From an uncultured Gammaproteobacteria bacterium (GTDB lineage: Bacteria; Patescibacteriota; Patescibacteriia; UBA11705; JABHMO01), in NCBI GenBank assembly GCA_964362205.1, contig CAYIDA010000005.1:64001-82409 (forward strand): a DNA stretch of 18,409 bases, given 5' to 3'. The number at the start of each line of letters is the position of its first letter. Positions within the stretch are counted from its first letter, which is position 1. The notes under the pieces were generated by a model that saw nothing but the letters and a program-made list of their open reading frames with translations, had not been told where the DNA came from and made no database searches. The position numbers were made by a program, and so were the translations under genes. Positions 1,143 through 14,176 of this stretch are shown piece by piece.

Positions 1143-2099
1143 ATGTTGATGCGAATATTATTGGTATTGCTTGTGATTTTCGTGATTTGGATAGGAATCA
1201 AGATTTTGGTCAGAGCCGTGCCGGAACTTTTTTCTAACCCTAATCGCCGCAAACTTAATAATGTTGGCGGAAGATTGCCGATCATCAGTTCAGGCGGAAT
1301 CGGTTCACTGGCAAAAATATTTTTACTTTTGAATATCGCTCCCGCGATCGCCGGATCAGTGGCCAGGCGCGAGCAAGTAAATATTTTGAAAGGCAAAATT
1401 AAAACTTTGCGCGAACGCGGAAAAAAGTTAGCGCTGGTTGAAATCAAACGTTTAGCCGTTATGACCAAATCATTGGACGAGCAACTTGATGATTGGGACG
1501 CGCGAGTTGAACGAAATGAGTTTGAATTCGTTGAACTGCAAGCCAGCATTGATCAATTAGGTCGCAATTTTAAAAAATACGTTGACGCGTATGTGGAAAC
1601 AGATTTGTTATTGGACAAGTGTTTTGAACTCTTGAAACAGGCGGCCGCAGCGACTCAAAATCAAGATGATTTGAAAGCACTCGCAGATCTTGAAGATGAA
1701 TTCAATCGTTGTCGCGCCGCAAGTTTTATTTTCGGGCAGGTCAAGGAACTGGATGATTTGTTTTCAGCGCTGAAAGAAAAAGAAAAAATTCTGACAGAAC
1801 ATATCGGACCTGCGCCAACTGACGCCAATGTTCAAGAAAATGAAATGAGTTATTATGAAATTCTTGGCGTTGATCCAGCCGCGACCTTGGCGGAAATTGC
1901 AACCGCTTATCGCCGCGAGATTAATCGCTGGCATCCGGACAAGAAAAACGCGCAAGTGGATAAGATTGAAGATGCTGATATCAAAGAAATGGTTCAAGAT
2001 GAAATTGAACGTCTTTTCCGCAGAGTGCGGGAAGCGTACGAGGTTTTGTCTGACCCGATTAAACGCGCGGCGTATGATGCCACGAGGAGGATAAAATAA
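1143..2099 (+). CDS. membrane-anchored J-domain co-chaperone (DjlA-like: N-terminal TM, central coiled/TerB-like region, C-terminal J domain)
   Basis: GAGGAGG Shine-Dalgarno at 1131-1138, ATG at 1143. N-terminus MLMRILLVLLVIFVIWIGIKILV is a TM helix. C-terminal YYEILGV...HPDK...AYEVLSDPIKRAAYD is a canonical J domain with the HPD motif and an extended helix II-III loop. Confidence 0.85.
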   Translation: MLMRILLVLLVIFVIWIGIKILVRAVPELFSNPNRRKLNNVGGRLPIISSGGIGSLAKIFLLLNIAPAIAGSVARREQVNILKGKIKTLRERGKKLALVEIKRLAVMTKSLDEQLDDWDARVERNEFEFVELQASIDQLGRNFKKYVDAYVETDLLLDKCFELLKQAAAATQNQDDLKALADLEDEFNRCRAASFIFGQVKELDDLFSALKEKEKILTEHIGPAPTDANVQENEMSYYEILGVDPAATLAEIATAYRREINRWHPDKKNAQVDKIEDADIKEMVQDEIERLFRRVREAYEVLSDPIKRAAYDATRRIK

Positions 2100-2941
2100 T
2101 GGCGGATATTGTGAAAAGAGCCGGCGGCCAAGGAAGTTTGGCCAGAAAGATGGAAGAACTGAATTCGTCCGCAAAACAATCGCTTCCCTTGCCCGCATCA
2201 GAGACCAAGAGCAGTGGCGATTTGCAAGTGGCGTTTGCGTTTGACACTACTTGCAGCATGTTTCGGTTTTTTAAAGCCGGAAAAGAAGCGATCAAAAAAA
2301 TTGTTGCTGAAGTAAAAGCCAAACGTCCGACCGCTGAATTTTGTTACATTGCCTACAAGAATCATGGCGATGAACAATATTTTGGCGGTTCGTATCCATT
2401 TTTTGCTACGGAATTTTCTTCCAATGCTGAAAGTTTGATTCAGTCGCTTGAGCGAATTGATAATAGCGGCGGCGGAGACGGGCTAACGGCGATTGAAGAT
2501 GTTTTGCATTTTTTGGCGGGTGAAGTTTATTGGGCCGACAAAGCAACCAAAGTTGTCGTGCTGATTGGCGATATGCCGCCACACGGAGTCATTGACTCGA
2601 TCTCGCAATGTCCGCATGAATACGACTATCGCGATGAAGCGGAAAAATTGAAGAGAAAAGGAGTTAAAATTTATTCCGTGCACTGTTTTGACGAAAGAGA
2701 TTTGGTTGGCGAGCGCGCGCAAAAAACGCAGGAATTTTTCAAGCAAATCGCGGCAGACAATGGCGGAAAATATTTGACGATGCAAAATATCGATGAAGTC
2801 GCGCAACTGCTTATCGGTATTTGCATGAAGGAAACCGGACACTTGTCAGCATTTATTCGTGAGCTGAAAAGTCGGGGTCAGTTGACTCCGGCTACTGAAC
2901 GCAAACTTCGTTTGCTGGAGGGAAGACGCGATGGCAGATGA
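2099..2941 (+). CDS. von Willebrand factor A (vWA/MIDAS) domain protein
   Basis: The start overlaps the upstream stop (TAATG at 2097-2101). VAFAFDTTCSM is a DxTxS-type MIDAS motif, followed by GGGDGLTA and then VVVLIGDMPPHG, which matches a vWA fold in both order and spacing. Confidence 0.65.
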   Translation: MADIVKRAGGQGSLARKMEELNSSAKQSLPLPASETKSSGDLQVAFAFDTTCSMFRFFKAGKEAIKKIVAEVKAKRPTAEFCYIAYKNHGDEQYFGGSYPFFATEFSSNAESLIQSLERIDNSGGGDGLTAIEDVLHFLAGEVYWADKATKVVVLIGDMPPHGVIDSISQCPHEYDYRDEAEKLKRKGVKIYSVHCFDERDLVGERAQKTQEFFKQIAADNGGKYLTMQNIDEVAQLLIGICMKETGHLSAFIRELKSRGQLTPATERKLRLLEGRRDGR

Positions 2942-3209
2942 AAAGAAAGTTGAAGATAAGGTGTTCAGGGTTATTGAAGAAGGTATTGATTTAGTTTTTA
3001 ATTTTGGGAAGAGAGCGGTTACCGAAGGGTTGAAGGAAGTTTTTGAGATTAAAACCGGCGATCCGGTAAAGGATGAAGCTGAAGTAGCCACTAGGATGAA
3101 AAGATTGAAGCGGGAAGCAAAGGCAAGAATGCGTGATTTGGTCGATGGTCTCTGGAAAGATGATGATGATAAAGGGCCGCCGGACAAAAAAGACAAAGTT
3201 GATCCATGA
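2931..3209 (+). CDS. small highly charged (acidic/Lys-rich) hypothetical protein, 92 aa
   Basis: The ATG overlaps the 3' end of the vWA gene by 11 nt (ATGGCAGATGA), and the ORF continues in the operon frame. I recognise no domain. Confidence 0.5.
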   Translation: MADEKKVEDKVFRVIEEGIDLVFNFGKRAVTEGLKEVFEIKTGDPVKDEAEVATRMKRLKREAKARMRDLVDGLWKDDDDKGPPDKKDKVDP

Positions 3210-3219
3210 TTTCAACTGT

Positions 3220-3244
3220 CGGGCAAGAATCAATTTCTTGCCCG
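3220..3244 (+). terminator. perfect 10-bp hairpin (CGGGCAAGAA/TTCTTGCCCG) with a weak U-tract; intra-operon attenuator or partial terminator
   Basis: The inverted repeat was read directly. It is followed by TTCACTTCAGAATTT. Confidence 0.35.
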
Positions 3245-3346
3245 TTCACTTCAGAATTTAATTGTGGCTACGAATTATTGGTTGTGATTGTAATTCTACT
3301 AAGCGCAATTAAAAATTGAAGCGAATGTTCATTACAAGGAGGTGAA

Positions 3347-4039
3347 ATGGCAATTCTATGCTGTTATGTTTGCGATCAAACAATTAACGGTCAATACTAC
3401 AAAGATGATCACGGGCAGCTCTGCTTTAATTGCCATGAGCCAAAAGTAAAATGTTTTACTTGTGGGAAACAATTGGCCGTGGGCAAAGAGATGAGATTGG
3501 CTGATTACAGGGTTACGTGTCCGGTTTGTTATGCGGAAGCTGTTTTCGCGATTGAACAAGAATTTGTTAGTGGATTGGAAAAGATATTGAAAAGATCCGG
3601 TTGGTATCCCTCCGGCAAAATAATTTTTGAGATTGTTGATCTGCCTCGACTTATGATAGAAAATGGCAATAGCAGTCGGACAATGTTGGGCACGTGCAAT
3701 ACGAATGTCTGCTTCAATTTGAATGTCAGGGTTTCAATTGAACATCGAGTAAGAGCTTTGTTCGGCTTACCGAGGACATTGTTTATTTGTACTTTGACTC
3801 ATGAACTTTTTCACGCTTGGCTGAACGAAAATATTGATCGAAACGTTTTTTCGGCCGAAGAAACAGAATGGCTCTGCGAACACGGTTCTTATTTGTTCGC
3901 ATTGGAAATGAAGTTTGATGAATTTTGGATAAGGAAAGTTGTGTCAAGTCGCGACAGTTTTCAAGTTGACAGTAGTTTTAAAAACAAGTATGATGTTTTA
4001 TCAGCCAGAGAGTTTGTTGGCAGATTGAGAAGCGCGTAA
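3347..4039 (+). CDS. LIM-type double zinc-finger protein fused to a DA1-like HExxH zinc metallopeptidase
   Basis: AGGAGG Shine-Dalgarno at 3337-3342. The N-terminus has about eight Cys/His ligands (CxxC-x15-HxxxC-xxC-x6-CxxC-x17-CxxC), which is LIM-like. The C-terminal half contains THELFHAWLNE, i.e. HExxH plus a downstream E. This closely resembles the HEMMHAWL motif of plant DA1 peptidases. Confidence 0.7.
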   Translation: MAILCCYVCDQTINGQYYKDDHGQLCFNCHEPKVKCFTCGKQLAVGKEMRLADYRVTCPVCYAEAVFAIEQEFVSGLEKILKRSGWYPSGKIIFEIVDLPRLMIENGNSSRTMLGTCNTNVCFNLNVRVSIEHRVRALFGLPRTLFICTLTHELFHAWLNENIDRNVFSAEETEWLCEHGSYLFALEMKFDEFWIRKVVSSRDSFQVDSSFKNKYDVLSAREFVGRLRSA

Positions 4040-4121
4040 GCAGTAACGGGTTCACCCGAAACTCTTGCGCACAAGTAGTTTCTGGGATTGGCGCCAGCCA
4101 AAATAACAAAGGAGGTGCGTG

Positions 4122-4367
4122 ATGCTGGCAAAAATATTGATTCTCGTAGTGCTGATTCTGATTGTCGCTTTGATTGGCAGTGGGGTGGCGCTCATCGCCG
4201 GCTGGTGGCAGCCGCAAAAGGATGCGAGCGGAAACGTGGTGCCGCTTTCAGGAAAAGAGAAAGTGGGAGTTGGTGTCGTTGTGGTGAGCGTGGTCGTTGG
4301 TTTCCTCACCTTGCTTCTTTCCTCGGAGCATCCGTGGGTGAAGAAAATCAAGGGCGTTGCCAAGTAA
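4122..4367 (+). CDS. small two-TM membrane protein (holin-like topology), 81 aa
   Basis: AGGAGG at 4110-4115, ATG at 4122 (the ORF track used GTG at 4119). Two hydrophobic helices are followed by a Lys-rich C-terminus. Confidence 0.55.
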   Translation: MLAKILILVVLILIVALIGSGVALIAGWWQPQKDASGNVVPLSGKEKVGVGVVVVSVVVGFLTLLLSSEHPWVKKIKGVAK

Positions 4368-4388
4368 TTATTTAGTTCTTTGATTGAA

Positions 4389-4414
4389 GGGAGCGGATCA
4401 CAATATCCGCTCCC
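4389..4414 (+). terminator. 10-bp perfect hairpin (GGGAGCGGAT-cacaat-ATCCGCTCCC) downstream of the small TM gene; the U-tract is imperfect
   Basis: The inverted repeat was read directly. It is followed by AAATCTAATTTTG. Confidence 0.35.
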
Positions 4415-4501
4415 AAATCTAATTTTGAATAACCATGTTTGTTTTTAATAAATTGAGAATGAACATGGTTCTTTGAAAACTGCCAACGAAAGGAGGCAAA
4501 A

Positions 4502-5647
4502 ATGAAAAGGCTCAGTAAATTGATGTGGGGTCTGTTTTTTATCGGTTTGGCCATTTTCTTGATTATCGGTCTTGTTAGATACGCGCCGCTTTTTGGATTT
4601 TTATTGATTTATCCGTATGCATTGGATCAGGTTTTGGGATTTGGTCTTAATCCTCATTTAACCAGGGCTTTGGCGCTCGCTGTCGGTTTTATTTTTTGGT
4701 ATGTGATTTTTTATTTTTTCTTGAGCCGCGACGGATCGAAGCGACTCATCGGATTCACTTTGATCGCTACGATATATGTCAGCAATTCGTTGATTATGTA
4801 TTTTATCACGCGTGATAATGTGGTGGATATTTTTACCGGCGAGAGAGCGTTCTGCCTTGAAGATCAGATGACCGGACGAATCAAGATTTACAGTCAGTCG
4901 CTTTTTGATCAACTTGGAAAGAAAACTGTCCGTTGTACAGATGATCAAATTGAGCGGTATGAAATTGAAAAAAAATTTAAACCCGATCAAAATTCAGAAG
5001 TAATGATAGATCAAGTGGTAAAAGGATTCATCAGTCCGAAGAGTGGGCGTGCTTTATTCTATTATTGTCTTGATACTGACGGCAAAGAAAGATTTTTTGT
5101 TGTTTCCGGACACTGCCCTTGGGGCGGTGGTAAACTGGAGCCGGTAACGAATGAAATAATGAAAAAAGTTGAAGAGCAGAAGAAACAGAAACAACAGAAA
5201 CAACAGGAAGAACAAAGTAAACTCGACTTGGAAAACAAATACGCGCAGTCAGCTGTAGAAAATCAGCAAATGAAATTAAAAACTCAACAAATTGTTGATG
5301 AGAATCAGCAGATGAAAGATAAAACCGAGCAACTGGCGATAGAAAATCAGCAAATAAAGGAAAATATTTTGCGGTTATCATTGGAAAGCGCAATCGGAGA
5401 GATTCGCAATGAGGAAGTTTCGAAAATTCGCGAAAGCACTGAAGAAGATATAAAAATTAAGGTATTTTGGGGAGTTGTTGCTTTTCTTATTTTTGCCTCA
5501 ATTTTATTCGGCACCGCGCTTACCGTGATGGAAACCGACAAAGATAGCGAGGAAGAATTAAAAGCTAAGTTAATCATTCAAGTTATTAGTTTGTTTCTTA
5601 TGTTCTTAGTGGTAGGCGGTTACGTCTTTTACCTTGTGAATGATTAG
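4502..5647 (+). CDS. polytopic membrane protein with a Cys-containing central domain, Gln-rich coiled-coil repeats and two C-terminal TM helices
   Basis: AGGAGG at 4491-4496. Three N-terminal TM segments are followed by a soluble region containing four Cys (FCLED, RCTDD, YYCLD, GHCPWGGG). Then come KQKQQKQQEEQ low complexity and three copies of ENQQMK-type 13-15-aa repeats, and finally two TM helices. Confidence 0.6.
   Translation: MKRLSKLMWGLFFIGLAIFLIIGLVRYAPLFGFLLIYPYALDQVLGFGLNPHLTRALALAVGFIFWYVIFYFFLSRDGSKRLIGFTLIATIYVSNSLIMYFITRDNVVDIFTGERAFCLEDQMTGRIKIYSQSLFDQLGKKTVRCTDDQIERYEIEKKFKPDQNSEVMIDQVVKGFISPKSGRALFYYCLDTDGKERFFVVSGHCPWGGGKLEPVTNEIMKKVEEQKKQKQQKQQEEQSKLDLENKYAQSAVENQQMKLKTQQIVDENQQMKDKTEQLAIENQQIKENILRLSLESAIGEIRNEEVSKIRESTEEDIKIKVFWGVVAFLIFASILFGTALTVMETDKDSEEELKAKLIIQVISLFLMFLVVGGYVFYLVND
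5260..5370 (+). repeat. about 3 imperfect in-frame tandem repeats (about 39-45 nt) encoding ENQQ(M/I)K coiled-coil repeats
   Basis: Copies of gaaaatcagcaaatgaa / gagaatcagcagatgaaa / gaaaatcagcaaataaag were read directly. Confidence 0.5.
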
Positions 5648-5683
5648 TTTAAAACCATTTAATATTGCCAAATTAAGATTCAT

Positions 5684-5713
5684 ATCCGTTGTTCTCAAAC
5701 AGCGGATTTTTAT
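5684..5713 (+). terminator. rho-independent terminator (ATCCGTTGTT-ctca-AACAGCGGAT followed by TTTTTAT)
   Basis: A 10-bp stem with one G-U pair and a 4-nt loop, followed by a U-tract, immediately after the stop of the membrane-protein gene. Confidence 0.7.
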
Positions 5714-5729
5714 GTGGATAAAGTTACGG

Positions 5730-5758
5730 TTGACAGAATTATAATTATGCTGTATGAT
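5730..5758 (+). promoter_or_regulatory. sigma70 promoter TTGACA-17-TATGAT
   Basis: Consensus -35, 17-nt spacer and 5/6 -10, positioned 58 nt upstream of the receiver-domain start codon. Confidence 0.6.
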
Positions 5759-5816
5759 TATGTTCGTCGCTTTTGGCGACGTTTGTTCTTTCAAGGGAAG
5801 GAAAGGAGCAGTGTTC

Positions 5817-6185
5817 ATGACGAACAAGGTGCGCAAAGTACTTTTGGTGGATGACGATCAAGCGATCTCCGAGGCGATCAAAGAAGCGTTAATGAGAGTT
5901 GGCATCAAGGTTGTCCACGCGGAAACGGTTGAGTCAGCGGAAAACATTTTTGACGAACACTCGTTTGACGCAGTTCTTCTCGACGCTAATGTTAATGGTG
6001 GAATAGACAATTCAGTTCGTTTCTTGGGGAAAATGAGAAATAACGGCTATCTCGGGATGGTGGTTGGTATTTCAGGGTGCGATGACTCAAACACTGTTTT
6101 GCGACAACATGGCGCTCAGCGTTGCATCTCAAAAATGTCGGTAGTGAGAAATTTATGGGGGCTGTTCAAACCCGACCAAGCGTAA
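5817..6185 (+). CDS. stand-alone response-regulator receiver (CheY-like REC) domain protein
   Basis: AAGGAG at 5803-5808 and ATG at 5817. The ORF-track start at 5754 lies inside the promoter. VLLVDDD is the acid pocket, AVLLDANV the phospho-acceptor Asp, VVGISG the Thr/Ser position, and FKP the conserved Lys-Pro. I see no output domain. Confidence 0.75.
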   Translation: MTNKVRKVLLVDDDQAISEAIKEALMRVGIKVVHAETVESAENIFDEHSFDAVLLDANVNGGIDNSVRFLGKMRNNGYLGMVVGISGCDDSNTVLRQHGAQRCISKMSVVRNLWGLFKPDQA

Positions 6186-6193
6186 GTAATTGA

Positions 6194-6222
6194 ATAGCAG
6201 TTCAAAACTGCTATTTTTTATT
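6194..6222 (+). terminator. rho-independent terminator (ATAGCAGTT-caa-AACTGCTAT followed by TTTTTTATTT)
   Basis: A perfect 9-bp stem, a 3-nt loop and a U-tract directly after the receiver-gene stop. Confidence 0.75.
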
Positions 6223-6240
6223 TAATTTTACGAAAAACGA

Positions 6241-6269
6241 TTGACAAGATTATTTTTTTGTGCTATACT
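6241..6269 (+). promoter_or_regulatory. perfect consensus sigma70 promoter TTGACA-17-TATACT
   Basis: Read directly. It is followed by the AAGGAGG Shine-Dalgarno at 6306-6312 and the ATG at 6318. Confidence 0.65.
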
Positions 6270-6317
6270 GATTAAGTTAAATAGTTCATTTTTTACTACA
6301 ACAACAAGGAGGTTGAG

Positions 6318-6848
6318 ATGACGCCGTACTACCTGAAGAGCGGGCCAAAGGCTGGCCAAGCCATGGAAGCCGTAATGTTCGAGCTCGACGGTTACTATCG
6401 TCTGGAAGCGGTTTTGCGGAAAAATGATGGTAGCAAAGACTGGTTGCGTCGAGTGAAGGACTTGATGCGTCGAGCTGATAGTCCGGTGATCGTGGCAAAG
6501 TGCGAGTGTGGTTCGATTGCGACACATGTCGGTGTGGCGATTCGTGACTGCGGTGTCACGATTTTGAACACTTCTTGTGTTCAATGCCACGATCAGTTCG
6601 AAGGGTTCGCGACCGCAGTGCCTTTGAAGTTCTCGAGCATTCGAGAATACTTCAGGCACGAGATCGACCGCAAGCAATTTTTGCGCGCTCTGCGTTCTGC
6701 TTGCGGACTGATCGAGAGCGGTCAGATCCCGCCACAGACTGCGTGCGACGTGTTTTATTCGTCAACTCCTCCTTCACCAGTGCCCGCACAAAAAAAAATC
6801 ACACCTCCTCCAATCATTCAACAACCGGAACAACTTCCCTTGTTCTAG
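6318..6848 (+). CDS. GC-rich orphan hypothetical protein, 176 aa, Cys/His cluster and Pro-rich tail
   Basis: Strong Shine-Dalgarno. GC is about 55-58% against a flanking background of about 38%, with GC-rich codon usage (CTG, GCC, CGT). KCECGS...H...DCG...SCVQCHDQ is a possible metal-binding cluster. The C-terminus TPPSPVPAQKKITPPPIIQQPEQLPLF is Pro-rich. Confidence 0.6.
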   Translation: MTPYYLKSGPKAGQAMEAVMFELDGYYRLEAVLRKNDGSKDWLRRVKDLMRRADSPVIVAKCECGSIATHVGVAIRDCGVTILNTSCVQCHDQFEGFATAVPLKFSSIREYFRHEIDRKQFLRALRSACGLIESGQIPPQTACDVFYSSTPPSPVPAQKKITPPPIIQQPEQLPLF

Positions 6849-6853
6849 AAATC

Positions 6854-6888
6854 AGCCAGCGCGTCATACGCGTCTGGCTGTTCTTTTT
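6854..6888 (+). terminator. rho-independent terminator (CAGCCAGCGCGT-cat-ACGCG(t)CTGGCTG followed by TTCTTTTT)
   Basis: A 12-bp stem with one bulge, followed by a U-tract, 6 nt after the stop. Confidence 0.7.
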
Positions 6889-7059
6889 GGTTAAATTAAC
6901 GGTCACGTACATTAAACAGTAACGTTAATTTTAATGTAAAGAAATCAAAAAATCATTGACATTCATACACAGCTATTGCGGAATAGTACAGTTTTGTTAT
7001 TATTAGTATTAGAACAATGCTCGCATGGAGATTGTTCTGTCTAATAAATATTATTTTTT

Positions 7060-7314: not shown

Positions 7315-9459
7315 ATGAAGCTTAAACACTTCTTTATCATCGGAGCTTGTTCGGTTGTGGTGATATTTTCAATGTCGTTTTTAGTCGTGCAAGCGCAGAA
7401 TGTTTCACAGAGCGCTTCTTCTTCAGTTTCTTCAATTTCCTTTCCGATTGCGGAATTGGGAAATTGTTCGTCCATTGCTGATTGCAAAACTTATTGTGAT
7501 GATTTGGACAACGTCAATGCCTGTCTTGATTATGCGTTGAAAAACGATTTGATGCCGAAAGAGCAGGTTGAAGTTATAAAAAACGAAACAAAAGTTGATG
7601 GTCCAGGCGGTTGCGCAGACAGAAAACAATGCGCCGCGTATTGCGACCAGGAAGAAAATTTTGAAGAATGTGTTTCGTTCGCAGAAAAAAATAAAATAAT
7701 TTCACCGGAAGAATCCAAGGCAGCCAAGAAGCTTGGCCCGAAGATGGTTGGTCCCGGCGGTTGCAAAGGCAAAGATGAATGCAAAGCTTATTGTGATGAA
7801 CCGAATAATCAGGCAGAGTGTTTAGCGTTTTCGGAAAAGAATGGTCTCATCAGCAAAGAAGAGGCCGCGAAAATAAAAAAGATGGGACCACTGAAAGAAG
7901 GTCCGGGCGGCTGTAAAGGAAAAAAAGAATGCGATAATTATTGCGGAAATCCGGTTAATGCTGAAGTCTGTATTGCTTTTGCAGAAAAGAACGGGCTCAT
8001 TAGTTCTGATGAGGCAAAAAAAACAAAAAAGTTTATTCCGAAAGATGAAGGACCTGGTGGTTGTCATGGGCCGGTTGAATGTAAGACTTTTTGTGATCAG
8101 CCTGATAACCAGGAAACATGTTTAGCTTTTTCGGAGAAGTATGAGCTGATGAGCAAAGAAGAAATTGCTCAAGCCAGAAAAATGGGACCGCTCAAAGAAG
8201 GTCCGGGCGGTTGCAAAGGCCCGGACGAATGCAAAGCTTTTTGCGATAAACAGGAGAATCAAGAGACCTGCGTTAATTTTTCTCTTGAACATGGTCTCAT
8301 GAGCAAAGAGCAAGCTGAAATGGTTAAAAATGGTCCAAGTATAAAAGGCGGACCGGGGGGATGCCAAGGGAAAGAGGAGTGTGACAGCTTCTGCCAAAAA
8401 ACAGAAAACACTGAAACGTGTATTAACTTTTCTGTTGAAAACGGATTTATGAGCAAGGATGAAGCGGACAGGATTAAACAAGGCGCAGTGCCGATTACCC
8501 CGAATGGAAACTGTAAAGAAAAAGATGGAAATTGTCCGGCCATGGATGCTCCGGGGACTCCGTTTACGGAAAATGATTGCCAAGGCGATGATTGTCCGGA
8601 TATTAATGTTTCAGGACCTAGGGTAAACGAGCAGAGTTGCCAAGGTGAGGATTGTGAAGATTTTGGTTTGCAGGATAAACCGCAGCCGCAGGGCATGATG
8701 CAAAAATTTAAAAATGGCATTGGAGTAATGAAGAAATTTATTTCTCCTGATGATCCGAATATTGTGCCGAACTGTAAGGGCGATGAGTGCAAGATTAAGC
8801 TGGAGCAGGTTGAAGACGAGGGAGTAGGCGAAGGCGGGCAAGCGGTTCAGCCTAGCCAACCAACAAACTCCTCAGCACAACAACCTCAAGGAATGATGCA
8901 AAAATTTAAAAAGTTTATTTCTTCTGATGATACCGATATTGTGCCGAATTGCAAAGGCGATGAATGCAAAATAAAGCTTGAACAAGTTGAAGATGAAGGC
9001 GTTGGTGAAGGTGGGCAAGCCGTTCAGTCTGGACAACCGAACAAACAAGCAATGCCGTTAAAACCGTATAATAAAATACCGTCGGGTGATCCGGCCTTGG
9101 CGCCGAACTGTCAAGGCGGTAATTGTAAGAGTAAAATTGAATCAAAGAATGCGCCCTCCGACCCCGCAGCTGACGGGGCAGGCGAGGCTCCTGCCTCCGT
9201 TGGAACTACGGCAGGCAAGCAGGGTGATAAACAGGGTGACAAAGGCGAGAACGGACAAGCAGTTCAGTCTGGTCAACCGAACAAACAAGCAACGTCGTTA
9301 AAACCGTATAATAAAATACCTTCGGGTGATCCTGCTTTGGCGCCGAACTGTCAAGGCGATGGTTGTAAAACAAACATTAAACCGATGAAACAGCCAGTGG
9401 TTGAAAACGGGCAATCTTTTCCCAAGAATGAACCTGCGGAAATAAAAACCAATCAATAA
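7315..9459 (+). CDS. secreted cysteine-rich tandem-repeat surface protein, 714 aa
   Basis: Signal peptide with an AQA cleavage site. Then about seven 50-aa modules of the form GPGGCxGxxECxxYCDxPxNxxxCxxFxEKNGLISxEEAxxIKKxGP, each with four Cys. A C-terminal region holds two further repeat families (QPQGMMQKFK...NCKGDECKIKLEQVEDEGVGEGGQAVQ x2 and GQAVQSGQPNKQAxxLKPYNKIPSGDPALAPNCQGxxCK x2). Confidence 0.8.
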   Translation: MKLKHFFIIGACSVVVIFSMSFLVVQAQNVSQSASSSVSSISFPIAELGNCSSIADCKTYCDDLDNVNACLDYALKNDLMPKEQVEVIKNETKVDGPGGCADRKQCAAYCDQEENFEECVSFAEKNKIISPEESKAAKKLGPKMVGPGGCKGKDECKAYCDEPNNQAECLAFSEKNGLISKEEAAKIKKMGPLKEGPGGCKGKKECDNYCGNPVNAEVCIAFAEKNGLISSDEAKKTKKFIPKDEGPGGCHGPVECKTFCDQPDNQETCLAFSEKYELMSKEEIAQARKMGPLKEGPGGCKGPDECKAFCDKQENQETCVNFSLEHGLMSKEQAEMVKNGPSIKGGPGGCQGKEECDSFCQKTENTETCINFSVENGFMSKDEADRIKQGAVPITPNGNCKEKDGNCPAMDAPGTPFTENDCQGDDCPDINVSGPRVNEQSCQGEDCEDFGLQDKPQPQGMMQKFKNGIGVMKKFISPDDPNIVPNCKGDECKIKLEQVEDEGVGEGGQAVQPSQPTNSSAQQPQGMMQKFKKFISSDDTDIVPNCKGDECKIKLEQVEDEGVGEGGQAVQSGQPNKQAMPLKPYNKIPSGDPALAPNCQGGNCKSKIESKNAPSDPAADGAGEAPASVGTTAGKQGDKQGDKGENGQAVQSGQPNKQATSLKPYNKIPSGDPALAPNCQGDGCKTNIKPMKQPVVENGQSFPKNEPAEIKTNQ
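7450..8520 (+). repeat. seven in-frame tandem repeats, 150-nt period (GPGGC... 4-Cys module)
   Basis: GGTCCnGGnGGnTGC recurs at about 7601, 7750, 7900, 8050, 8200 and 8350. Confidence 0.75.
8689..9036 (+). repeat. two copies of an about 150-nt coding repeat; the protein is identical over NCKGDECKIKLEQVEDEGVGEGGQAVQ while the DNA differs at many synonymous sites
   Basis: The copies at 8689-8850 and 8887-9036 were compared by eye. Third-position differences include aag/aaa, gag/gaa and ctg/ctt. Confidence 0.6.
9013..9368 (+). repeat. two near-identical about 115-nt DNA repeats (9013-9128 and 9253-9368) encoding GQAVQSGQPNKQA..LKPYNKIPSGDPALAPNCQG
   Basis: Read directly. They are about 90% identical at the DNA level and separated by a Gly/Asp/Lys-rich linker. 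Confidence 0.6.
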
Positions 9460-9468
9460 TAATTTATA

Positions 9469-9510
9469 AAAAGAATTGTCTCGCGAAGCTGGGGCAATTC
9501 TTTGTTTTAA
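9469..9510 (+). terminator. possible terminator: 8-bp stem AAGAATTG/CAATTCTT with a large 18-nt loop, followed by TGTTTT
   Basis: Read directly. It is weak because of the large loop. Confidence 0.3.
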
Positions 9511-9529
9511 ACGGATTTTGTGATATAAT
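9501..9529 (+). promoter_or_regulatory. promoter with an extended -10 (TGaTATAAT) and a weak -35 (TTTGTT/TTGTTT)
   Basis: TATAAT at 9524-9529 is preceded by TGa, about 25 nt upstream of the ATG at 9554. The leader is short and has no clear Shine-Dalgarno. Confidence 0.45.
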
Positions 9530-9553
9530 ATGGCGGAAAGTTATTAAAGAACC

Positions 9554-12500
9554 ATGCTGTCTGGATTACCAAAAATTTCCGGAGAAGCAAAAACGATCTC
9601 TGCGGAAGCAGCGCAAAAACAAAGCGTTAATGATCGGTATTTTTGGTATTATAGAAATGTAAAATATTTTGTCAAAGACGGAGAAGAGCGATTGGGTTTT
9701 GGTCACGCTGATGTCAGAAATTTACGGGAGTATTTGCGTGAGGTCAAACAGAGCGGGAATCAAATTGAATATTTGGCCTTGCTTCAGTTTATCGGAAATG
9801 AGCGGAGCTCTGGAATGGACAAATTTGAATCTTCTGATTATAGTGTTGCAGGAAGTCAGCTCAAATTGAATTTAGATGAACTGGCGAGCATACTGCGCGC
9901 ACAGGAATTAAAAAAAATGGTAGCCGAAGAAAAAATTCCAATCGATCCGACGAATGTTGCTGATCTTGAAAAGAATGTTCATTTACTGTTAGATATTTTA
10001 GCCTGCAAAAATGAAATTGGCGGAGAGGCGGTGATCGAAAAAGCAATGACATTGATTCTTTCATGTTTAAGCGAACAGGAAAGATGGGGGTTTTCAATAA
10101 TCAGGACTGAATGCCGCGGTTTTATTGAAAGGTTTCTATCTGAATATGTTAACGTTTTGGCGGTTGATAATAAGGAGCAGGAATTAAAAAACAAGATTGA
10201 CCGAACTAATCTGGTTGGACCATGGAAAACACAACTGGAGGCTTTGGTCGAAAAATTAACAGTCAACACTAAACGTTATCGAGGTGATATAGGCGATAAT
10301 CTGATAAGGATGTTCGATCGCTTTGGATTGACTGCCGGAAAAAACTTTTTAAAAATGTTTATCAAGGCTACGGTTGACTTTTTACCGGCGCGCGATGAAG
10401 ATCATCAGGCTTTTGAATTGTTGTCAAAAAAATATAAAATCAATGAAAAAGTTTTGGCAGCGTTGCGTCGTATCGAGGACCCGCGGCAGAGATTTGAGGA
10501 AGCGAAAAAAATTTGTGAAACTGTCGGCGCTGATGTTGTTCTCGATCATATTTATGAGTTGAATTTACCGTCCGGGCAGGAAGAACAATTGCTTGAAGTA
10601 ATGGCTGAAATTGATCCGGAATCGGTTTTGCATCACGCGCGATATATTGATTTTGAGAATTTGAAAAATCGCCATGAAGTTTATTTCGCGCTATTGGTAA
10701 ATTCAACTGAACTTTTTGTCAATTATTTGGATGAATTGAATATTGATCGTGAAGAACTGGCGGAACTGATGTTGAAGGCGGCGGACAGCCGACCGCTCGA
10801 TATTTTGGTGAATTTTGATTTGATCATGAAAAAAGTTCCGACCTTTGCCTCAGAGTTGGTTGCAAAAATAAAAACCGGATTTGAATCAATCGAGCATACT
10901 GACGCGGAGATCCTGAATCAGTTGACCGATATAAGAATAAAAAGCCGGCCGGAAGCCAGCAGTTTGGTTTCTTCCTTGCGCACGCAGGCTATAATCAATT
11001 CGTCTGATTTGCTAATGAGTAGACTTGATTTTAATGCTACTTCGAATTACGCGGAAAAAACCAAGTTGGCTGAAGACGCGAAGATGTTTTTAGCTGAATG
11101 CGGGCAAAAAAAGGGCGTGCGCGATGTTTTGGAATATACATATTCTCGCCATCCGGAAATGCATGATCGCATAATAAGAGGATCTTTTGGTGAGACAAAG
11201 GGCGGACTTCCGCCCGCTTCTCCTGACGCTGTGTTATTGATATTGAAGGAATTGATTGATGATGATGATTTTTATGGTGCGTCAGAGATTATTCTCGGTC
11301 GAGAAGTCAGTGAAATGAGTTTAGCTGGCCGGAAGGAAATTGGTGAGATGGTAAAAATGTTAATCAGGGATACTGAATATAGCGACATGGGCGTGTTCAA
11401 ATATTATGGAGCCGGTTGGATTAATCATAAGGAGCTTCAGAACTATTTTGATGAAAAAATCGAACAAAATGTTTTGGATATAGTTGATTTCAACGAAGAA
11501 GATGCCAATCTTCAACATTTTTTGACTGACCAACAAAAAGAGCGGATCATTGAACTATTGGTTGAAAATTCACCGGCTGTATTGGCGAAAAATTTTTATC
11601 GGTTGCGGGTGACCAATGGAAAGACCGAGCATGAAGCTGTGCGCAAATATATGGCTGATGGCAAACAGCCGTTTTGTCTTTTCCAAACACCGGCTGAAGC
11701 CATCGGTTTTCTCTCGAAAAAGTCTTATGGCAGATGCTGGAACGAGGATGGTTCGAAAAAAATAGTGGCGGAAATGATTGCCATGAATAAATTTATCCAA
11801 GGATTGCATAATCCTGAAATTGAGAAAATGTTGTCAGAAAAAGAATATACAACGCGAAATCTATCAGAGAGAAATTTGTTTTTGATGGATGCGTTTATGA
11901 AAAGATATCGGCAGGTTTTTGAAGAGTTGGTAGCGCTCGATGATCGTGGTTTTTATTGGATTGATGTTTTTTTCGCGGTCAAGGATGAAGGCGATTTTCC
12001 GAAGTTGGCGAAAATAATAGCGGAAGCAGTGAAGATGGACAAGGATTATGCCAAGGGAGTTGCGGCAATGGAAAAAGACAGAGGCAGAGATAGAGATGCG
12101 TCTAGACCTACTATGAAACTTATGTATTGGGATAATGATAAACTAGGTCGAACTCATTCTCCGAAATATAAATGGCGGCAGAGCTTTCGTGAAAATCATC
12201 CGGAGCCGCCAAGCTCGTACCATCGTGGCTATTTAATTGGGATGGCGCTTCGCCTTGATACCACTTATCATGGAATAATCGAGAAAATGGAGAAATTGGA
12301 AAAAAACCTCAATCAAGACATTGAAAGCAATGATCCTTTTGCTCCAATCCAGTTTATACATTCGGAAGAGGCATTTTTTAGATTGAGGTTTCTTGAAGAA
12401 AATAAAACATCGATAAACAGATTGATTGTATTCGCTAAGCAAAAATCCATTAGCGATATTTTTAGCGTGCTTGAAACGATTTGTCAGCTCAATAAAAGTG

Positions 12501-14176
12501 AACAAAGTGTTTTTTTAAACAAGACTGATTGGGAAGAAATAATAAAAGGATTTGACGCAACAGAGATTTTGAATATTTATTTGAAATATTGCGCTCAAGG
12601 GTTGATTCGTCCGTCGGAAAGCGAAAGCGTGAAAGTTTTTAGAGAATACTTGGGCATATTTGGCGCGCTTGACTCGGTTTGTCTCTTTAAAAAGTTTATG
12701 TTTCTGCGCGCTGGTCATGAACCGGATGGTGAATTGAAAGAAATCGGCGTTGAAACTACTGGTAATCAAGGTCTGCGGCAGTTTATTGAAAAATATTATG
12801 ATTTGCGCGATCGTTTTATTTTGCAAGGGGAGTTTAAGCAGGCTGATTGGAATTTAGAAAACAGGCTTGTCTTGGAATTACTTAGCGTTTATAGTGACTT
12901 TGATCTTGGTAAGTGGAAAGGCAGTGACGAAAGATTTAAGGAATTAATTGAAAAATTTACTTTGGCAAAAAAAGAGGGCAGGACGGCGCCGCTTGATAGC
13001 GCATTTGTTGTTCAAAAAATTAGCGTGGCAGAATTGGTTGATTTTGATGCGGAAAACATTACTTTGAGCGCGGAGGCGACTGATCGTTTCAAGACGCTCG
13101 TTGACAGCAGTTCGCGAAGTTACTTGGCTCGCAGATCAGAGGAGGAGCAACTGCAGGTTTTTTCCCGTAGCTGTCTCAATAATATTGAGGAGGAATTACG
13201 ACGATTACAAAGAAAATTAACTGTGGCTGAAAAAGAAACTGATGAGAAAACTAATTTTCGGCAAGATGGTTTGAGCCGGCAAATAGACATAATTAAGCGG
13301 TTGGGAAACGCGGTCGAAACGGCGAAAACTTCGGAAGAATTGTTACGGACGTTGCTTGATTTTGAAACAATCAATGACAGAAAGAGCGACAATAATATTA
13401 CCACGACGATTATTCGCGAGATTGTTTTCGCGCGGGCACGTGTTGATCACGAAGACTATTTCAGTGAATTTATGAAAACCAGTTCAAAAGACAAACCGGG
13501 GAAAAGCGATTTGGAAAAAATGGTTGAGTTTGTGAATAATATTCTAAAACAGCATGTTTGGCCGACGCTTGATTTACCGGCCAGCCATAATAAAAAACTG
13601 TCAAAAATATTCAATGTCAGCGAATTAAAAAAAGAAATCAGCCGTCTTGATGAGATGCTCAGCGGCAAGAAGCGCGAATTGCTTTGTGTGCCAACCAGAG
13701 AAATGCTCGGAGAATTCAGTGGTTACTATGCCAATGCTTGTTGGAATGCGCTTGAAAATATCATGGAGAAAAATCCGGCTATGACGGCCGTGGCGTTTGT
13801 TTCCAATCCTGAAGACCGGAAGCATCGCCGTTTGGCCGGCGCCACCCTGCTGATTGAAACTACGGTTGATGGTAAAAAGGCGATGATTGTTCGCGGACTA
13901 AATCCAAGCCAGAATGTTATTGAACAGCTTAGCGCGGAAAACTTCACTGAAGAATTTATTGAAAAGTATTTACTGCCGATTTGCCGCGAGAAGGGGATTG
14001 ATTTACTGATTTGTCCGCTGTATAACCATCACGCGTTAACTAATCGCCCGTCCATTGAAGAATATTTGAAAAAGAAATATCAGAACACTCAACGCGTCAA
14101 GCTTGATGAGACGGTTAATTTCAATGGTTATGATATTACAAAGAGTTGCGTGGTTTTGAGAGATATTTCACAATAA
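9554..14176 (+). CDS. giant orphan hypothetical protein, 1540 aa, mostly alpha-helical and charged, with no TM or signal peptide
   Basis: A single uninterrupted 4.6-kb ORF with AT-rich codon usage matching the flanking genes. I find no P-loop or HExxH. The C-terminal region has a Cys...His arrangement (YYANACWNALEN ... PLYNHHALTN, about 97 aa apart) reminiscent of papain-like or transglutaminase-like cysteine peptidases. That last point is speculative. Confidence 0.75.
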   Translation: MLSGLPKISGEAKTISAEAAQKQSVNDRYFWYYRNVKYFVKDGEERLGFGHADVRNLREYLREVKQSGNQIEYLALLQFIGNERSSGMDKFESSDYSVAGSQLKLNLDELASILRAQELKKMVAEEKIPIDPTNVADLEKNVHLLLDILACKNEIGGEAVIEKAMTLILSCLSEQERWGFSIIRTECRGFIERFLSEYVNVLAVDNKEQELKNKIDRTNLVGPWKTQLEALVEKLTVNTKRYRGDIGDNLIRMFDRFGLTAGKNFLKMFIKATVDFLPARDEDHQAFELLSKKYKINEKVLAALRRIEDPRQRFEEAKKICETVGADVVLDHIYELNLPSGQEEQLLEVMAEIDPESVLHHARYIDFENLKNRHEVYFALLVNSTELFVNYLDELNIDREELAELMLKAADSRPLDILVNFDLIMKKVPTFASELVAKIKTGFESIEHTDAEILNQLTDIRIKSRPEASSLVSSLRTQAIINSSDLLMSRLDFNATSNYAEKTKLAEDAKMFLAECGQKKGVRDVLEYTYSRHPEMHDRIIRGSFGETKGGLPPASPDAVLLILKELIDDDDFYGASEIILGREVSEMSLAGRKEIGEMVKMLIRDTEYSDMGVFKYYGAGWINHKELQNYFDEKIEQNVLDIVDFNEEDANLQHFLTDQQKERIIELLVENSPAVLAKNFYRLRVTNGKTEHEAVRKYMADGKQPFCLFQTPAEAIGFLSKKSYGRCWNEDGSKKIVAEMIAMNKFIQGLHNPEIEKMLSEKEYTTRNLSERNLFLMDAFMKRYRQVFEELVALDDRGFYWIDVFFAVKDEGDFPKLAKIIAEAVKMDKDYAKGVAAMEKDRGRDRDASRPTMKLMYWDNDKLGRTHSPKYKWRQSFRENHPEPPSSYHRGYLIGMALRLDTTYHGIIEKMEKLEKNLNQDIESNDPFAPIQFIHSEEAFFRLRFLEENKTSINRLIVFAKQKSISDIFSVLETICQLNKSEQSVFLNKTDWEEIIKGFDATEILNIYLKYCAQGLIRPSESESVKVFREYLGIFGALDSVCLFKKFMFLRAGHEPDGELKEIGVETTGNQGLRQFIEKYYDLRDRFILQGEFKQADWNLENRLVLELLSVYSDFDLGKWKGSDERFKELIEKFTLAKKEGRTAPLDSAFVVQKISVAELVDFDAENITLSAEATDRFKTLVDSSSRSYLARRSEEEQLQVFSRSCLNNIEEELRRLQRKLTVAEKETDEKTNFRQDGLSRQIDIIKRLGNAVETAKTSEELLRTLLDFETINDRKSDNNITTTIIREIVFARARVDHEDYFSEFMKTSSKDKPGKSDLEKMVEFVNNILKQHVWPTLDLPASHNKKLSKIFNVSELKKEISRLDEMLSGKKRELLCVPTREMLGEFSGYYANACWNALENIMEKNPAMTAVAFVSNPEDRKHRRLAGATLLIETTVDGKKAMIVRGLNPSQNVIEQLSAENFTEEFIEKYLLPICREKGIDLLICPLYNHHALTNRPSIEEYLKKKYQNTQRVKLDETVNFNGYDITKSCVVLRDISQ

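What the first reader, a model, noticed from the sequence alone, without database searches (positions are those of the whole stretch)
6194..6888. GC-rich orphan gene as an insulated single-gene cassette (terminator, perfect consensus promoter, strong Shine-Dalgarno, ORF, terminator)
The 531-nt ORF runs at about 55-58% GC with GC-rich codon choice, against roughly 38% in the surrounding genes. That is a sharp compositional island suggesting horizontal acquisition, possibly from a high-GC host or phage. It is bracketed by two clean rho-independent terminators and driven by a textbook TTGACA-17-TATACT promoter, so it is built for strong independent expression. The protein has a Cys/His cluster and a Pro-rich tail, and I find no recognisable homology.
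Basis: seen in the sequence. Interest (0 to 1): 0.55.

Follow-up and report, generated by a model that had tools for sequence, protein, structure and literature searches.

The report
GC-rich gene for clamp-tailed zinc protein
The GC-rich "orphan" is not a recently imported gene but a long-resident, self-contained gene of a group of Patescibacteria, encoding a small, uncharacterised zinc-type protein whose flexible tail ends in the motif that proteins use to dock on the DNA sliding clamp.

Summary
The described features are real, but the numbers were overstated. The 531-nt ORF (6318-6848) is 52.4% GC against 41.6% for the window. It is the highest-GC stretch of its length here. The promoter (TTGACA-17-TGcTATACT), Shine-Dalgarno site and both terminators are present and conserved.

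Horizontal acquisition is not supported. Orthologues and distant homologues (28-79% identity) occupy the same chromosomal slot in about ten Patescibacteria lineages. Each has its own promoter, Shine-Dalgarno site and terminator, and each is well above its genome's GC (55.7% vs 31.5% in one case). Synonymous sites are saturated, and the gene evolves faster than its neighbours. The GC level is therefore maintained, not a fading import signature. No integration scars, tRNA genes or phage relatives were found.

The gene is not a strict orphan: a profile search found 27 clusters of 125-192 aa proteins. AlphaFold2 gives a confident model (pLDDT 90.7) with no match in PDB or BFVD. The protein is basic, has a CxC...CxxC/H site, and has a disordered tail ending in QLPLF, a canonical beta-clamp-binding motif. 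My best reading (inferred, about 0.4) is a strongly expressed, clamp-tethered zinc protein acting in DNA metabolism.

The parts
6192..6223 (+). Rho-independent terminator of the upstream response-regulator gene (hairpin 6192-6216 plus T run). It insulates the unit on its 5' side.
   Evidence: 11-bp stem; -11.7 kcal/mol, z = -4.8. The hairpin is invariant in four orthologous loci.
6224..6240 (+). A/T-rich stretch directly upstream of the -35 element (ATTTAATTTTAC...), conserved among close orthologues. It may be an UP-like element (inferred).
   Evidence: Alignment A1 shows these columns invariant. Function was not tested.
6241..6269 (+). Sigma-70-type promoter: TTGACA, 17-nt spacer, TGcTATACT (extended -10).
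   Evidence: 11/12 match, TG present. TTGAC and TGCTATAAT are conserved in orthologues. Equivalent promoters precede distant family members.
6306..6312 (+). Shine-Dalgarno sequence AAGGAGG, 5 nt before the ATG.
   Evidence: GGAGG is also present upstream of distant family members.
6318..6848 (+). Coding sequence for a 176-aa basic protein (pI 8.7), under purifying selection.
   Evidence: dN/dS is 0.10-0.19 and dS is 1.0-1.5 between lineages. Differences concentrate at codon position 3.
6318..6482 (+). Residues 1-55: N-terminal helical subdomain with the family motif PYxLxFGKFxGxAxExLMFxxxGYxxL. It weakly resembles ExoX-like_C / QSregVF_b.
   Evidence: Alignment A4; AF2 helices 16-19, 23-35 and 40-53. 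Six of 28 members give sub-threshold Pfam hits.
6483..6632 (+). Residues 56-105: beta-hairpin region carrying the putative metal site C62, C64, C87, C90 (codons 6501-6503, 6507-6509, 6576-6578, 6585-6587), followed by the conserved VPLKFSS motif.
   Evidence: C62 and C87 are invariant and C64 is at least 90% conserved. The fourth ligand is Cys, or His in three members. AF2 strands are 70-76 and 79-86, with helix 91-94.
6633..6767 (+). Residues 106-150: C-terminal helical subdomain (motifs DxxxFLRxLRxACGL and AxxFFYP).
   Evidence: pLDDT above 90.
6768..6830 (+). Residues 151-171: Pro/Lys-rich linker of variable length, predicted disordered.
   Evidence: pLDDT is 61-73. The region has indels and low conservation in alignments.
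6831..6845 (+). Residues 172-176: C-terminal QLPLF, matching the canonical beta-sliding-clamp binding motif QLxLF.
   Evidence: The motif is invariant in close orthologues (QLPLF or QIPLF) although the linker varies. The motif definition is from PMC11139829.
6853..6889 (+). Rho-independent terminator of the gene (hairpin 6853-6880, then TTCTTTTTG).
   Evidence: -19.9 kcal/mol, z = -5.5. Compensatory changes in orthologues are seen (columns 616/643 and 621/638).

Best explanation
The gene is a vertically inherited, lineage-specific gene of a Patescibacteria clade, kept as its own strongly signalled monocistronic unit.

Its GC excess has two sources. One is an Ala/Gly/Arg/Pro/Cys-rich protein. 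The other is synonymous-site composition that is actively maintained in every lineage. That maintenance is most likely selection linked to high expression (inferred), not a foreign origin.

The product is a small basic protein with a confidently predicted globular domain of about 150 aa. The domain resembles no solved structure and is built around a CxC...CxxC/H site that probably binds zinc. It is followed by a disordered linker and a C-terminal QLxLF motif.

The most likely mechanism (inferred) is that the tail docks into the peptide-binding pocket of the DnaN sliding clamp. This would tether the zinc domain to clamp-loaded DNA, where it acts in or regulates replication or repair.

What is shown: gene reality, conservation, synteny, transcription signals, the GC pattern, fold confidence and the presence of the motif. 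What is inferred: high expression, zinc binding, clamp binding and a role on DNA.
For: Coding and selection: dN/dS is 0.10-0.19 with dS of 1.0-1.5.

Synteny: the same slot is occupied in four close lineages and in distant ones, namely L013, L017, L018, L020, L025 and L027. The neighbouring genes EamA, GH and DJ-1 are 53-87% identical, and the target is always the most diverged of the set.

Transcription signals: every family member checked for signals has its own TTGAC-type promoter and GGAGG; all but one (L028) also show a recognisable terminator.

GC excess in every lineage:
- L027: 55.7% vs 31.5%, with GC3 of 0.72 vs 0.15-0.28 in its neighbours
- L017: 57.5% vs 36.7%
- L013: 53.7% vs 39.7%

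Decomposition in the window: amino-acid composition alone predicts 47.7% GC, against 38-46% for the other genes. Synonymous choice adds a further 4.8 points. NNY codons end in C in 65% of cases against 27% in the background (p = 3e-7). Four-fold GC3 is 47% against 50%.

Promoter link: the three + strand genes preceded by promoters matching at least 11/12 (target, response regulator, 81-aa gene) are the three with the highest GC3 of 16 genes. An exact count gives a chance of 1/560.

Metal site: C62 and C87 are invariant, and the fourth ligand swaps between Cys and His.

Charge: pI is 8.5-10 in 25 of 28 members.

Clamp motif: Q[LIVM]x[LM][FL], or its six-residue form, lies in the last 14 residues of 14 of 33 family sequences. 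Chance is 0.3% per 14-mer. In nine loci it occurs in 8 of 9 family ORFs and in 0 of 82 other ORFs of at least 120 aa. It matches the published definition, in which QLxLF is the highest-affinity form (PMC11139829).
Against: No experiment or complex model links the tail to DnaN. About half of the family sequences have a degenerate motif or no tail at all.

A high-affinity clamp ligand expressed strongly would be expected to compete with polymerases. A fast-evolving protein is also atypical for a highly expressed gene.

High expression is inferred only from the signals and codon pattern. Ribosomal-protein genes from the same genome could not be retrieved for comparison, and the glycolytic TIM gene in L018 does not share the NNY-C bias.

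In low-GC relatives the synonymous shift affects all codon classes and is larger than ordinary translational selection usually produces. The selective force is therefore not identified.

Zinc binding is inferred from the ligand pattern only, because the model coordinates could not be inspected.
Confidence: 0.45

Rival explanations
1. Recent horizontal acquisition: the ORF is a compositional island imported from a high-GC host or phage as a ready-made cassette.
For: It is the highest-GC stretch in the window. It has no annotated homologues. The slots on both sides of the gene vary between lineages.
Against: The gene is at the same locus, with the same GC excess, in all relatives, down to 28% identity. 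It is more diverged than its neighbours, not less. Four-fold GC3 equals the background in the window, L007, L013 and L018. No repeats, tRNA genes or integrase were found. No phage or viral hits were found. None of the host contigs examined is as GC-rich as the gene.
Confidence: 0.04
2. Ancient transfer into the clade's ancestor, with the foreign composition simply persisting since then.
For: The family is narrow (27 clusters among 1.84 billion representatives). One divergent member sits in a different, non-syntenic genome context (L028).
Against: Synonymous sites are saturated even between the closest lineages (dS of 1.0-1.5). Yet GC3 stays at 0.49-0.72 in hosts of 31-46% GC. A passive relic would have drifted to the host's composition, so the composition must be maintained whatever the ultimate origin.
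Confidence: 0.12
3. The GC richness reflects a functional RNA structure: the transcript is a dual-function or structure-stabilised RNA, in the way that rRNA and tRNA GC is independent of genome GC.
For: The window mRNA folds better than its shuffles. z is -4.3 with both dinucleotide shuffles and synonymous-codon shuffles. L017, L027 and L023 give z of -2.8 to -4.5. The family mean is -1.7, against -0.55 for 17 control genes.
Against: The signal is not family-wide: L007 gives +0.5, L013 gives 0.0 and L020 gives +0.7. RNAalifold on four orthologues gives a covariation term of +0.62 with many broken pairs, and only the terminator covaries. There is no Rfam match. dS is saturated.
Confidence: 0.07
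4. The conserved C-terminal hydrophobic motif is not a clamp-binding motif. It would instead dock on another partner (for example a protease adaptor as a degron, RNA polymerase, or a lineage-specific protein), and the zinc domain would act outside replication or repair, for example as a regulator working with the adjacent stand-alone receiver protein.
For: Many members have degenerate ends such as LPF, LPWL, NLL or PLFSS. A CheY-like receiver gene lies directly upstream in the window, L007, L011, L012 and L018, and it shares the codon bias. Strong expression and fast evolution fit a clamp ligand poorly.
Against: The exact QLxLF or QLxLxF form recurs in independent lineages, at the extreme C-terminus after a disordered linker, as in Pol II and Pol IV. 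The receiver gene is absent from L013, L017, L020, L025 and L027. The proteins are basic. The N-terminal motif weakly resembles a domain found on exonuclease X.
Confidence: 0.3

Closest known systems
Beta-clamp clients with a C-terminal clamp-binding motif (E. coli Pol II ...QLGLF, Pol IV ...QLVLGL)
   Same: The motif is of the QLxLF type and sits at the extreme C-terminus behind a flexible segment. It matches the Q-phi-x-[L/M]-[F/L] definition in PMC11139829.
   Different: The attached domain is a 150-aa zinc-type domain with no polymerase, nuclease or ATPase signature and no structural match. Binding has not been tested.
Small clamp-binding regulators of replication initiation: YabA (Firmicutes; zinc-binding C-terminal domain) and Hda (Proteobacteria). 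This comparison rests on my own knowledge plus the abstract of PMC5397184 listed.
   Same: They are small proteins that combine a clamp contact with, in YabA, a Cys/His zinc site. This makes them a plausible functional analogue in a phylum where no such regulator is known.
   Different: No sequence or profile similarity was found: there are no Pfam or NCBIfam hits. YabA has an N-terminal coiled coil and Hda is an AAA+ protein with an N-terminal motif. This is an analogy only.
ExoX-like_C (PF20600) / QSregVF_b (PF12843, formerly DUF3820) motif domain
   Same: The N-terminal FGK[FY]xG...[ED]xhhF...GYxYL pattern. Six of 28 family members give weak hits at the same N-terminal position.
   Different: All hits are below the gathering thresholds (best 21.2 bits against 22). 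The window protein itself gives no hit, and a profile of the N-terminus retrieved nothing.
Treble-clef / zinc-ribbon type Cys4 sites
   Same: A CxC knuckle before a beta-hairpin and a CxxC/H at the start of a short helix.
   Different: No significant structural or profile match to any zinc-finger family was found.
Genomic islands / horizontally acquired cassettes
   Same: A sharp GC peak confined to one gene with its own promoter and terminators.
   Different: The position is conserved in all relatives, there are no mobility features, and the composition is maintained rather than decaying.

Membership tests
Horizontally acquired island or cassette | Atypical base composition relative to the host genome | tested here: met
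   52.4% GC against 41.6%. It is the top 531-nt window, and z = 2.4 against the other genes.
Horizontally acquired island or cassette | Patchy presence: absent from the same locus in related genomes | tested here: not met
   The gene is present at the same slot in every related lineage recovered, from 79% down to 28% identity.
Horizontally acquired island or cassette | Mobility signatures such as flanking direct repeats, a tRNA target or an integrase/transposase | tested here: not met
   Only short AT-rich chance repeats were found. There are no tRNA genes and no integrase or transposase domains in the neighbours.
Horizontally acquired island or cassette | Donor-like codon usage, with the GC shift strongest at four-fold sites | tested here: not met
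   In the window, four-fold GC3 is 47% against 50% in the background, and the shift is confined to two-fold codons. In the low-GC relatives L017 and L027 all codon classes are shifted.
Beta-clamp-binding proteins (clamp-binding-motif clients) | Motif Q-phi-x-[L/M]-[F/L] or Q-phi-x-[L/M]-x-[F/L] (PMC11139829) | tested here: met
   The window protein ends in QLPLF-COOH. 14 of 33 family sequences match in their last 14 residues, against a chance of 0.3%. No other ORF of 82 in the nine loci matches.
Beta-clamp-binding proteins (clamp-binding-motif clients) | Motif lies in an accessible, disordered segment or terminus | tested here: met
   Tail residues 151-176 have pLDDT of 61-73, against above 90 for the domain. 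The linker varies in length and sequence.
Beta-clamp-binding proteins (clamp-binding-motif clients) | Physical binding to the DnaN hydrophobic pocket | not testable with these tools
YabA / Hda replication-initiation regulators | Sequence membership (Pfam or NCBIfam model hit) | tested here: not met
   No hit for the window protein or any of the 28 family members.
ExoX-like_C / QSregVF_b (PF20600 / PF12843) | Score at or above the Pfam gathering threshold | tested here: inconclusive
   The window protein gives no hit. The best member, P0015, scores 21.2 bits against a cut-off of 22 (E = 2.6e-4). Six of 28 members give weak hits, all at the N-terminus. An N-terminal profile search returned nothing.
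Zinc-binding Cys4/Cys3His domain | Four conserved metal ligands with Cys/His interchange | tested here: met
   C62 and C87 are invariant and C64 is at least 90% conserved. Position 90 is Cys in most members and His in P0011, P0018 and P0019.
Zinc-binding Cys4/Cys3His domain | Ligands converge in 3D, and metal is present | not testable with these tools
Structured or dual-function RNA | Conserved helices supported by covariation, and stability beyond composition across the family | tested here: inconclusive
   z ranges from -4.5 to +0.7 across the family, against a control mean of -0.55. The covariation term is +0.62. There is no Rfam hit.

The most novel reading that the evidence does not exclude
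This would be a previously undescribed, Patescibacteria-centred family of abundant sliding-clamp-binding zinc proteins with a new fold. It could be a lineage-specific regulator or accessory factor of replication or repair, taking the place that YabA or Hda hold elsewhere. Its coding sequence is held at about 50-57% GC by selection, whatever the genome's GC (31-46%). That would make it a natural test case for selection on GC content in streamlined genomes.
Probability: 0.3. Interest if true: 0.7.

Novelty: new variant of a known kind. Interest (0 to 1): 0.45.

Why it matters
Patescibacteria are largely uncultivated and have reduced genomes. How they control DNA replication and repair is poorly understood. 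A conserved, strongly signalled small protein carrying a canonical clamp-binding tail on a domain with no structural relatives is a concrete, testable candidate for a lineage-specific replisome-associated factor.

Separately, this gene keeps GC3 of 0.5-0.7 at a fixed chromosomal position while its neighbours drop to 0.15-0.28. That is a clean counter-example to the habit of reading single-gene GC peaks as horizontal transfer. It is also a possible handle on what selects for GC at synonymous sites.

Tried and rejected
Family and sequence searches:
- Pfam, NCBIfam, PHROGs and PADLOC gave nothing for the window protein.
- PDB sequence searches with profiles gave nothing meaningful.

Structure:
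- AF2 with only 4 sequences failed, with pLDDT 37. It succeeded with 28 sequences.
- The afdb50 library was unavailable.

Related loci and taxonomy:
- Two scans of the GTDB representative genomes found no relative, so the taxonomy could not be refined beyond the NCBI label 'Patescibacteria group bacterium'.
- A phage tblastn search and an IMG/VR scan found no relatives.

Other tests:
- A profile search with the N-terminus alone, meant to test the ExoX-like_C / QSregVF_b lead, gave no hits.
- Papers mentioning DUF3820 or PF12843 were uninformative.
- Flanking integration repeats: none convincing. tRNA genes: none. Rfam: none.
- A conserved downstream partner is rejected. The 'large protein' after the gene is a cytoplasmic giant protein in some lineages and an unrelated secreted 506-508-aa protein in others. 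In L025 and L027 it is absent.
- mRNA-structure selection as the cause of the high GC is inconsistent across the family and has no covariation support.
- Recent gene exchange between lineages is rejected, because the gene is more diverged than its neighbours.
- One script timed out without output.
Full report
OBSERVATION. The ORF at 6318-6848 (+) encodes 176 aa. Its GC content is 52.4% (GC1 55.9, GC2 44.6, GC3 56.5). The window is 41.6% GC and the other genes are 38-46%. It is the highest-GC 531-nt stretch in the window. Outside the ORF the maximum is 49.7%, with mean 41.5% and SD 3.0%. Against the other 15 genes z = 2.4.

The promoter is TTGACA (6241-6246), a 17-nt spacer, then TATACT (6264-6269), with a TG at 6261-6262. 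That is an 11/12 match. AAGGAGG lies 5 nt before the ATG. The upstream hairpin at 6192-6216 folds at -11.7 kcal/mol (z = -4.8). It is the terminator of the preceding receiver-domain gene. The downstream hairpin at 6853-6880 plus its T run folds at -19.9 kcal/mol (z = -5.5).

Such monocistronic units are not unique to this gene. Near-consensus promoters and terminators also flank the 81-aa gene at 4122-4367 and the response-regulator gene.

IS IT A REAL GENE? Yes. Four related lineages carry orthologues at 72-99% identity. Pairwise dN/dS is 0.10-0.19, and differences concentrate at codon position 3. dS is 1.0-1.5, which is essentially saturated.

IS IT A HORIZONTALLY ACQUIRED ISLAND? The evidence says no.

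(i) All four close lineages have the gene at the same place. The local order is DnaJ-VWA-small ORF-DA1-like-81/82-aa membrane protein-receiver-[gene]-74-aa protein-Cys-rich secreted protein.

(ii) A profile search of 1.84 billion representatives found 27 clusters of 125-192 aa proteins. I looked up the genomic context of seven distant members at 28-37% identity. Six lie in the same chromosomal neighbourhood of other Patescibacteria. That neighbourhood runs YibE_F-Zip-(guanylate cyclase-acyltransferase)-(receiver)-[gene]-(variable insert)-EamA-GH-like-DJ-1-x-DUF5667-peptidase M16-TIM-FBA. The seventh and most divergent, P0027, is in an unrelated context.

(iii) Relative to these genomes, the extra material in the window's lineage is the surrounding blocks: DnaJ...receiver upstream, and the 74-aa and Cys-rich proteins downstream. 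The gene itself is the constant anchor.

(iv) The gene is always the most diverged of the syntenic set. It is 72% identical where the neighbours are 75-87%, and 28-37% where they are 53-73%. There is therefore no sign of recent exchange.

(v) There are no flanking direct repeats, no tRNA genes and no mobility genes. There are no phage or viral relatives.

WHY IS IT GC-RICH? The excess is a property of the family, not of this genome:
- L007: 54.9% vs 41.9%
- L013: 53.7% vs 39.7%
- L017: 57.5% vs 36.7%
- L018: 50.5% vs 40.3%
- L020: 46.5% vs 41.1%
- L023: 56.7% vs 43.9%
- L025: 45.8% vs 39.2%
- L027: 55.7% vs 31.5%

In L027 the gene's GC3 is 0.72, while its eleven neighbours have 0.15-0.28. Synonymous sites are saturated even between the closest lineages, so a passive foreign signature would have decayed. 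The composition must be maintained.

In the window the excess can be split into two parts. The amino-acid composition alone predicts 47.7% GC under the background codon usage. Synonymous choice adds a further 4.8 points. The synonymous part is confined to two-fold codons. NNY codons end in C in 65% of cases against 27% (p = 3e-7), and CGT and GGT are preferred, with no ATA, AGA or TTA. Four-fold GC3 equals the background, at 47% against 50%. L007, L013 and L018 behave in the same way, and the adjacent receiver gene shares the NNY-C bias.

Three + strand genes in the window are preceded by promoters matching at least 11/12: the target, the receiver gene and the 81-aa gene. These are exactly the three highest-GC3 genes of 16. 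An exact count gives a chance of 1/560. I therefore infer that the synonymous composition is linked to expression.

There are caveats. In the low-GC relatives all codon classes are shifted, by more than ordinary translational selection usually gives. The TIM gene does not share the bias. I could not retrieve ribosomal-protein genes from the same genomes.

I tested an RNA-structure explanation. The window mRNA is more stable than its shuffles, with z = -4.3. However, the family ranges from -4.5 to +0.7, with mean -1.7, against -0.55 +/- 1.5 for 17 control genes. RNAalifold on four orthologues shows no net covariation inside the CDS. Only the terminator covaries. There is no Rfam hit. This explanation remains inconclusive and is not family-wide.

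WHAT IS THE PROTEIN? No curated family or solved structure matches by sequence. With 28 family sequences AlphaFold2 gives a confident model, with pLDDT 90.7 and pTM 0.79. Residues 1-150 are folded (helices 16-19, 23-35, 40-53; strands 70-76, 79-86, 99-102; helices 91-94, 106-111, 115-128, 139-146). Residues 151-176 have low confidence.

The alignment shows C62 and C87 invariant and C64 at least 90% conserved. Position 90 is Cys, or His in three members. This is the signature of a Cys4/Cys3His metal site, with a CxC knuckle before the hairpin and CxxC/H at the start of a helix. The proteins are basic, with pI of 8.5-10 in 25 of 28.

The N-terminal motif PYxLxFGKFxGxAxExLMFxxxGYxxL gives sub-threshold hits to QSregVF_b and ExoX-like_C in six of 28 members. 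The best is 21.2 bits against a cut-off of 22. An N-terminal profile search retrieved nothing. I treat this as a lead, not a finding.

THE TAIL. After a Pro/Lys-rich linker that varies in length and sequence, the close orthologues all end in QLPLF or QIPLF. Across the family the ends include QLQLF, QLCLF, QLKLF, QMNLF, QLELL, QLELPF and QLFLAF.

A 2024 review defines canonical beta-clamp-binding motifs as Q-phi-x-[L/M]-[F/L] and Q-phi-x-[L/M]-x-[F/L]. It states that QLxLF and QLxLxF are the highest-affinity forms, that the third position is tolerant, and that several motifs lie at C-termini (PMC11139829).

Fourteen of 33 family sequences match within their last 14 residues, 11 of them at the very end. 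Chance is 0.3% per 14-mer. In nine loci the pattern occurs in 8 of 9 family ORFs and in none of 82 other ORFs of at least 120 aa.

A conserved terminal short motif behind a disordered linker on a basic zinc domain is what a clamp-tethered DNA-associated factor would look like. This is my preferred mechanism, at about 0.4, and binding itself is untested. Against it, about half of the family has degenerate or missing tails. Strong expression of a high-affinity clamp ligand is also hard to reconcile with normal replication unless the protein is regulated.

NEIGHBOURS GIVE NO FIRM FUNCTIONAL PARTNER. The gene that follows differs between lineages:
- window and L020: a giant cytoplasmic protein of 1495-1540 aa
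- L007: a shortened 486-aa version of that protein
- L013: a weakly related 1274-aa protein
- L017 and L018: an unrelated signal-peptide protein of 506-508 aa
- L025 and L027: EamA follows directly
. The stand-alone receiver gene is upstream only in some lineages.

VERDICT. The sequence features are confirmed with corrected numbers. The horizontal-transfer reading is not supported. The gene is a conserved, self-contained unit encoding an uncharacterised family with a predicted new fold and a canonical clamp-binding tail. Its GC content is maintained by an unidentified, probably expression-linked, selective force. Interest is moderate. The finding as stated is largely explained away, but what replaces it is a testable candidate replisome-associated factor in an understudied phylum, together with an unusually clear case of gene-specific GC maintenance.

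Noticed in passing
window 4122-4367 (+), promoter 3966-3994: This is a second GC-rich small gene: an 81-aa protein with two hydrophobic segments, 53% GC and GC3 of 0.64. It has its own 11/12 promoter and an AAAGGAGG ribosome-binding site. It is conserved with the same GC excess in L007, L011 and L012 (GC3 0.59-0.70). The overlapping ORF at 4088-4375 in another frame is probably spurious.
   Followed up: partly
window 5814-6185 (+), promoter 5730-5758: A stand-alone CheY-like receiver-domain gene lies directly upstream. It has its own near-consensus promoter and terminator. It shares the NNY-C codon bias of the target (0.61 against about 0.27 in the background). It is adjacent to the family gene in some lineages (L007, L011, L012, L018) but not in others.
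   Followed up: partly
window 6956-7059 (hairpin arms 7011-7018 / 7031-7038): The conserved intergenic leader of the 74-aa membrane-protein gene has a TTGACA at 6956-6961. It also contains a hairpin, AGAACAAT...ATTGTTCT, that keeps pairing through changes on both arms in L007 and L011. The hairpin is followed by TCTAATAAAT and a T run just before the ATG. It may be an attenuator or a translational control element. There is no Rfam hit.
   Followed up: no
window 1143-6185 compared with L013, L017, L020, L025, L027: The block DnaJ-domain membrane protein, VWA protein, 92-aa protein, DA1-like/LIM-type Cys-rich putative peptidase, 81-aa membrane protein, 381-aa coiled-coil membrane protein and receiver is absent from more distant relatives. 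There the family gene follows Zip or the acyltransferase gene directly. This block, not the target gene, is the lineage-specific insertion. In L007 it is preceded by a Clp-like AAA protein and a 459-aa protein.
   Followed up: partly
window 7315-9459 (+): A 714-aa secreted protein is built of about seven repeats of a Cys-rich module (GPGGC.G..EC..[FY]C...N...C..F). It has a duplicated C-terminal segment (QPQGMMQKFK...NCKGDECKIKLEQVEDEGVGEGGQAVQ, twice). Its Gly/Ala/Pro-rich end produces a second local GC peak (about 53% at 9001-9450). It has no family match.
   Followed up: no
window 9554-14176 (+) compared with L007 13129-14589: The 1540-aa protein has no domain hits. In L007 it is replaced by a 486-aa version that joins its first 385 residues or so to its last 108 or so. 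This looks like an in-frame deletion of about 1050 residues. L020 has a 1495-aa homologue (33% identity over the C-terminal 600 aa).
   Followed up: partly
window 9675-9648 (- strand): The only perfect 12/12 promoter match in the window (TTGACA-16-TATAAT) lies on the minus strand inside the 5' end of the 1540-aa gene. It points back towards the 9460-9553 intergenic region. It could be an antisense or divergent promoter, or it could be chance.
   Followed up: no
window 6791-6799: An A9 homopolymer lies inside the tail-coding region (A7 in L011, absent in L007 and L012). A slip there would change the frame before the QLPLF motif. An alternative frame is open from 6575 to 6922. The tract is not conserved, so it is probably incidental.
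   Followed up: no
L028 8001-8579: The most divergent family member (P0027, E = 7e-5) has no tail. It sits in an unrelated context (MscL, ECF sigma factor, CCA-adding enzyme, PheRS, PEP-CTERM protein). That suggests the family extends outside the syntenic Patescibacteria clade. It is also above its contig's GC (52.8% against 46.1%).
   Followed up: no
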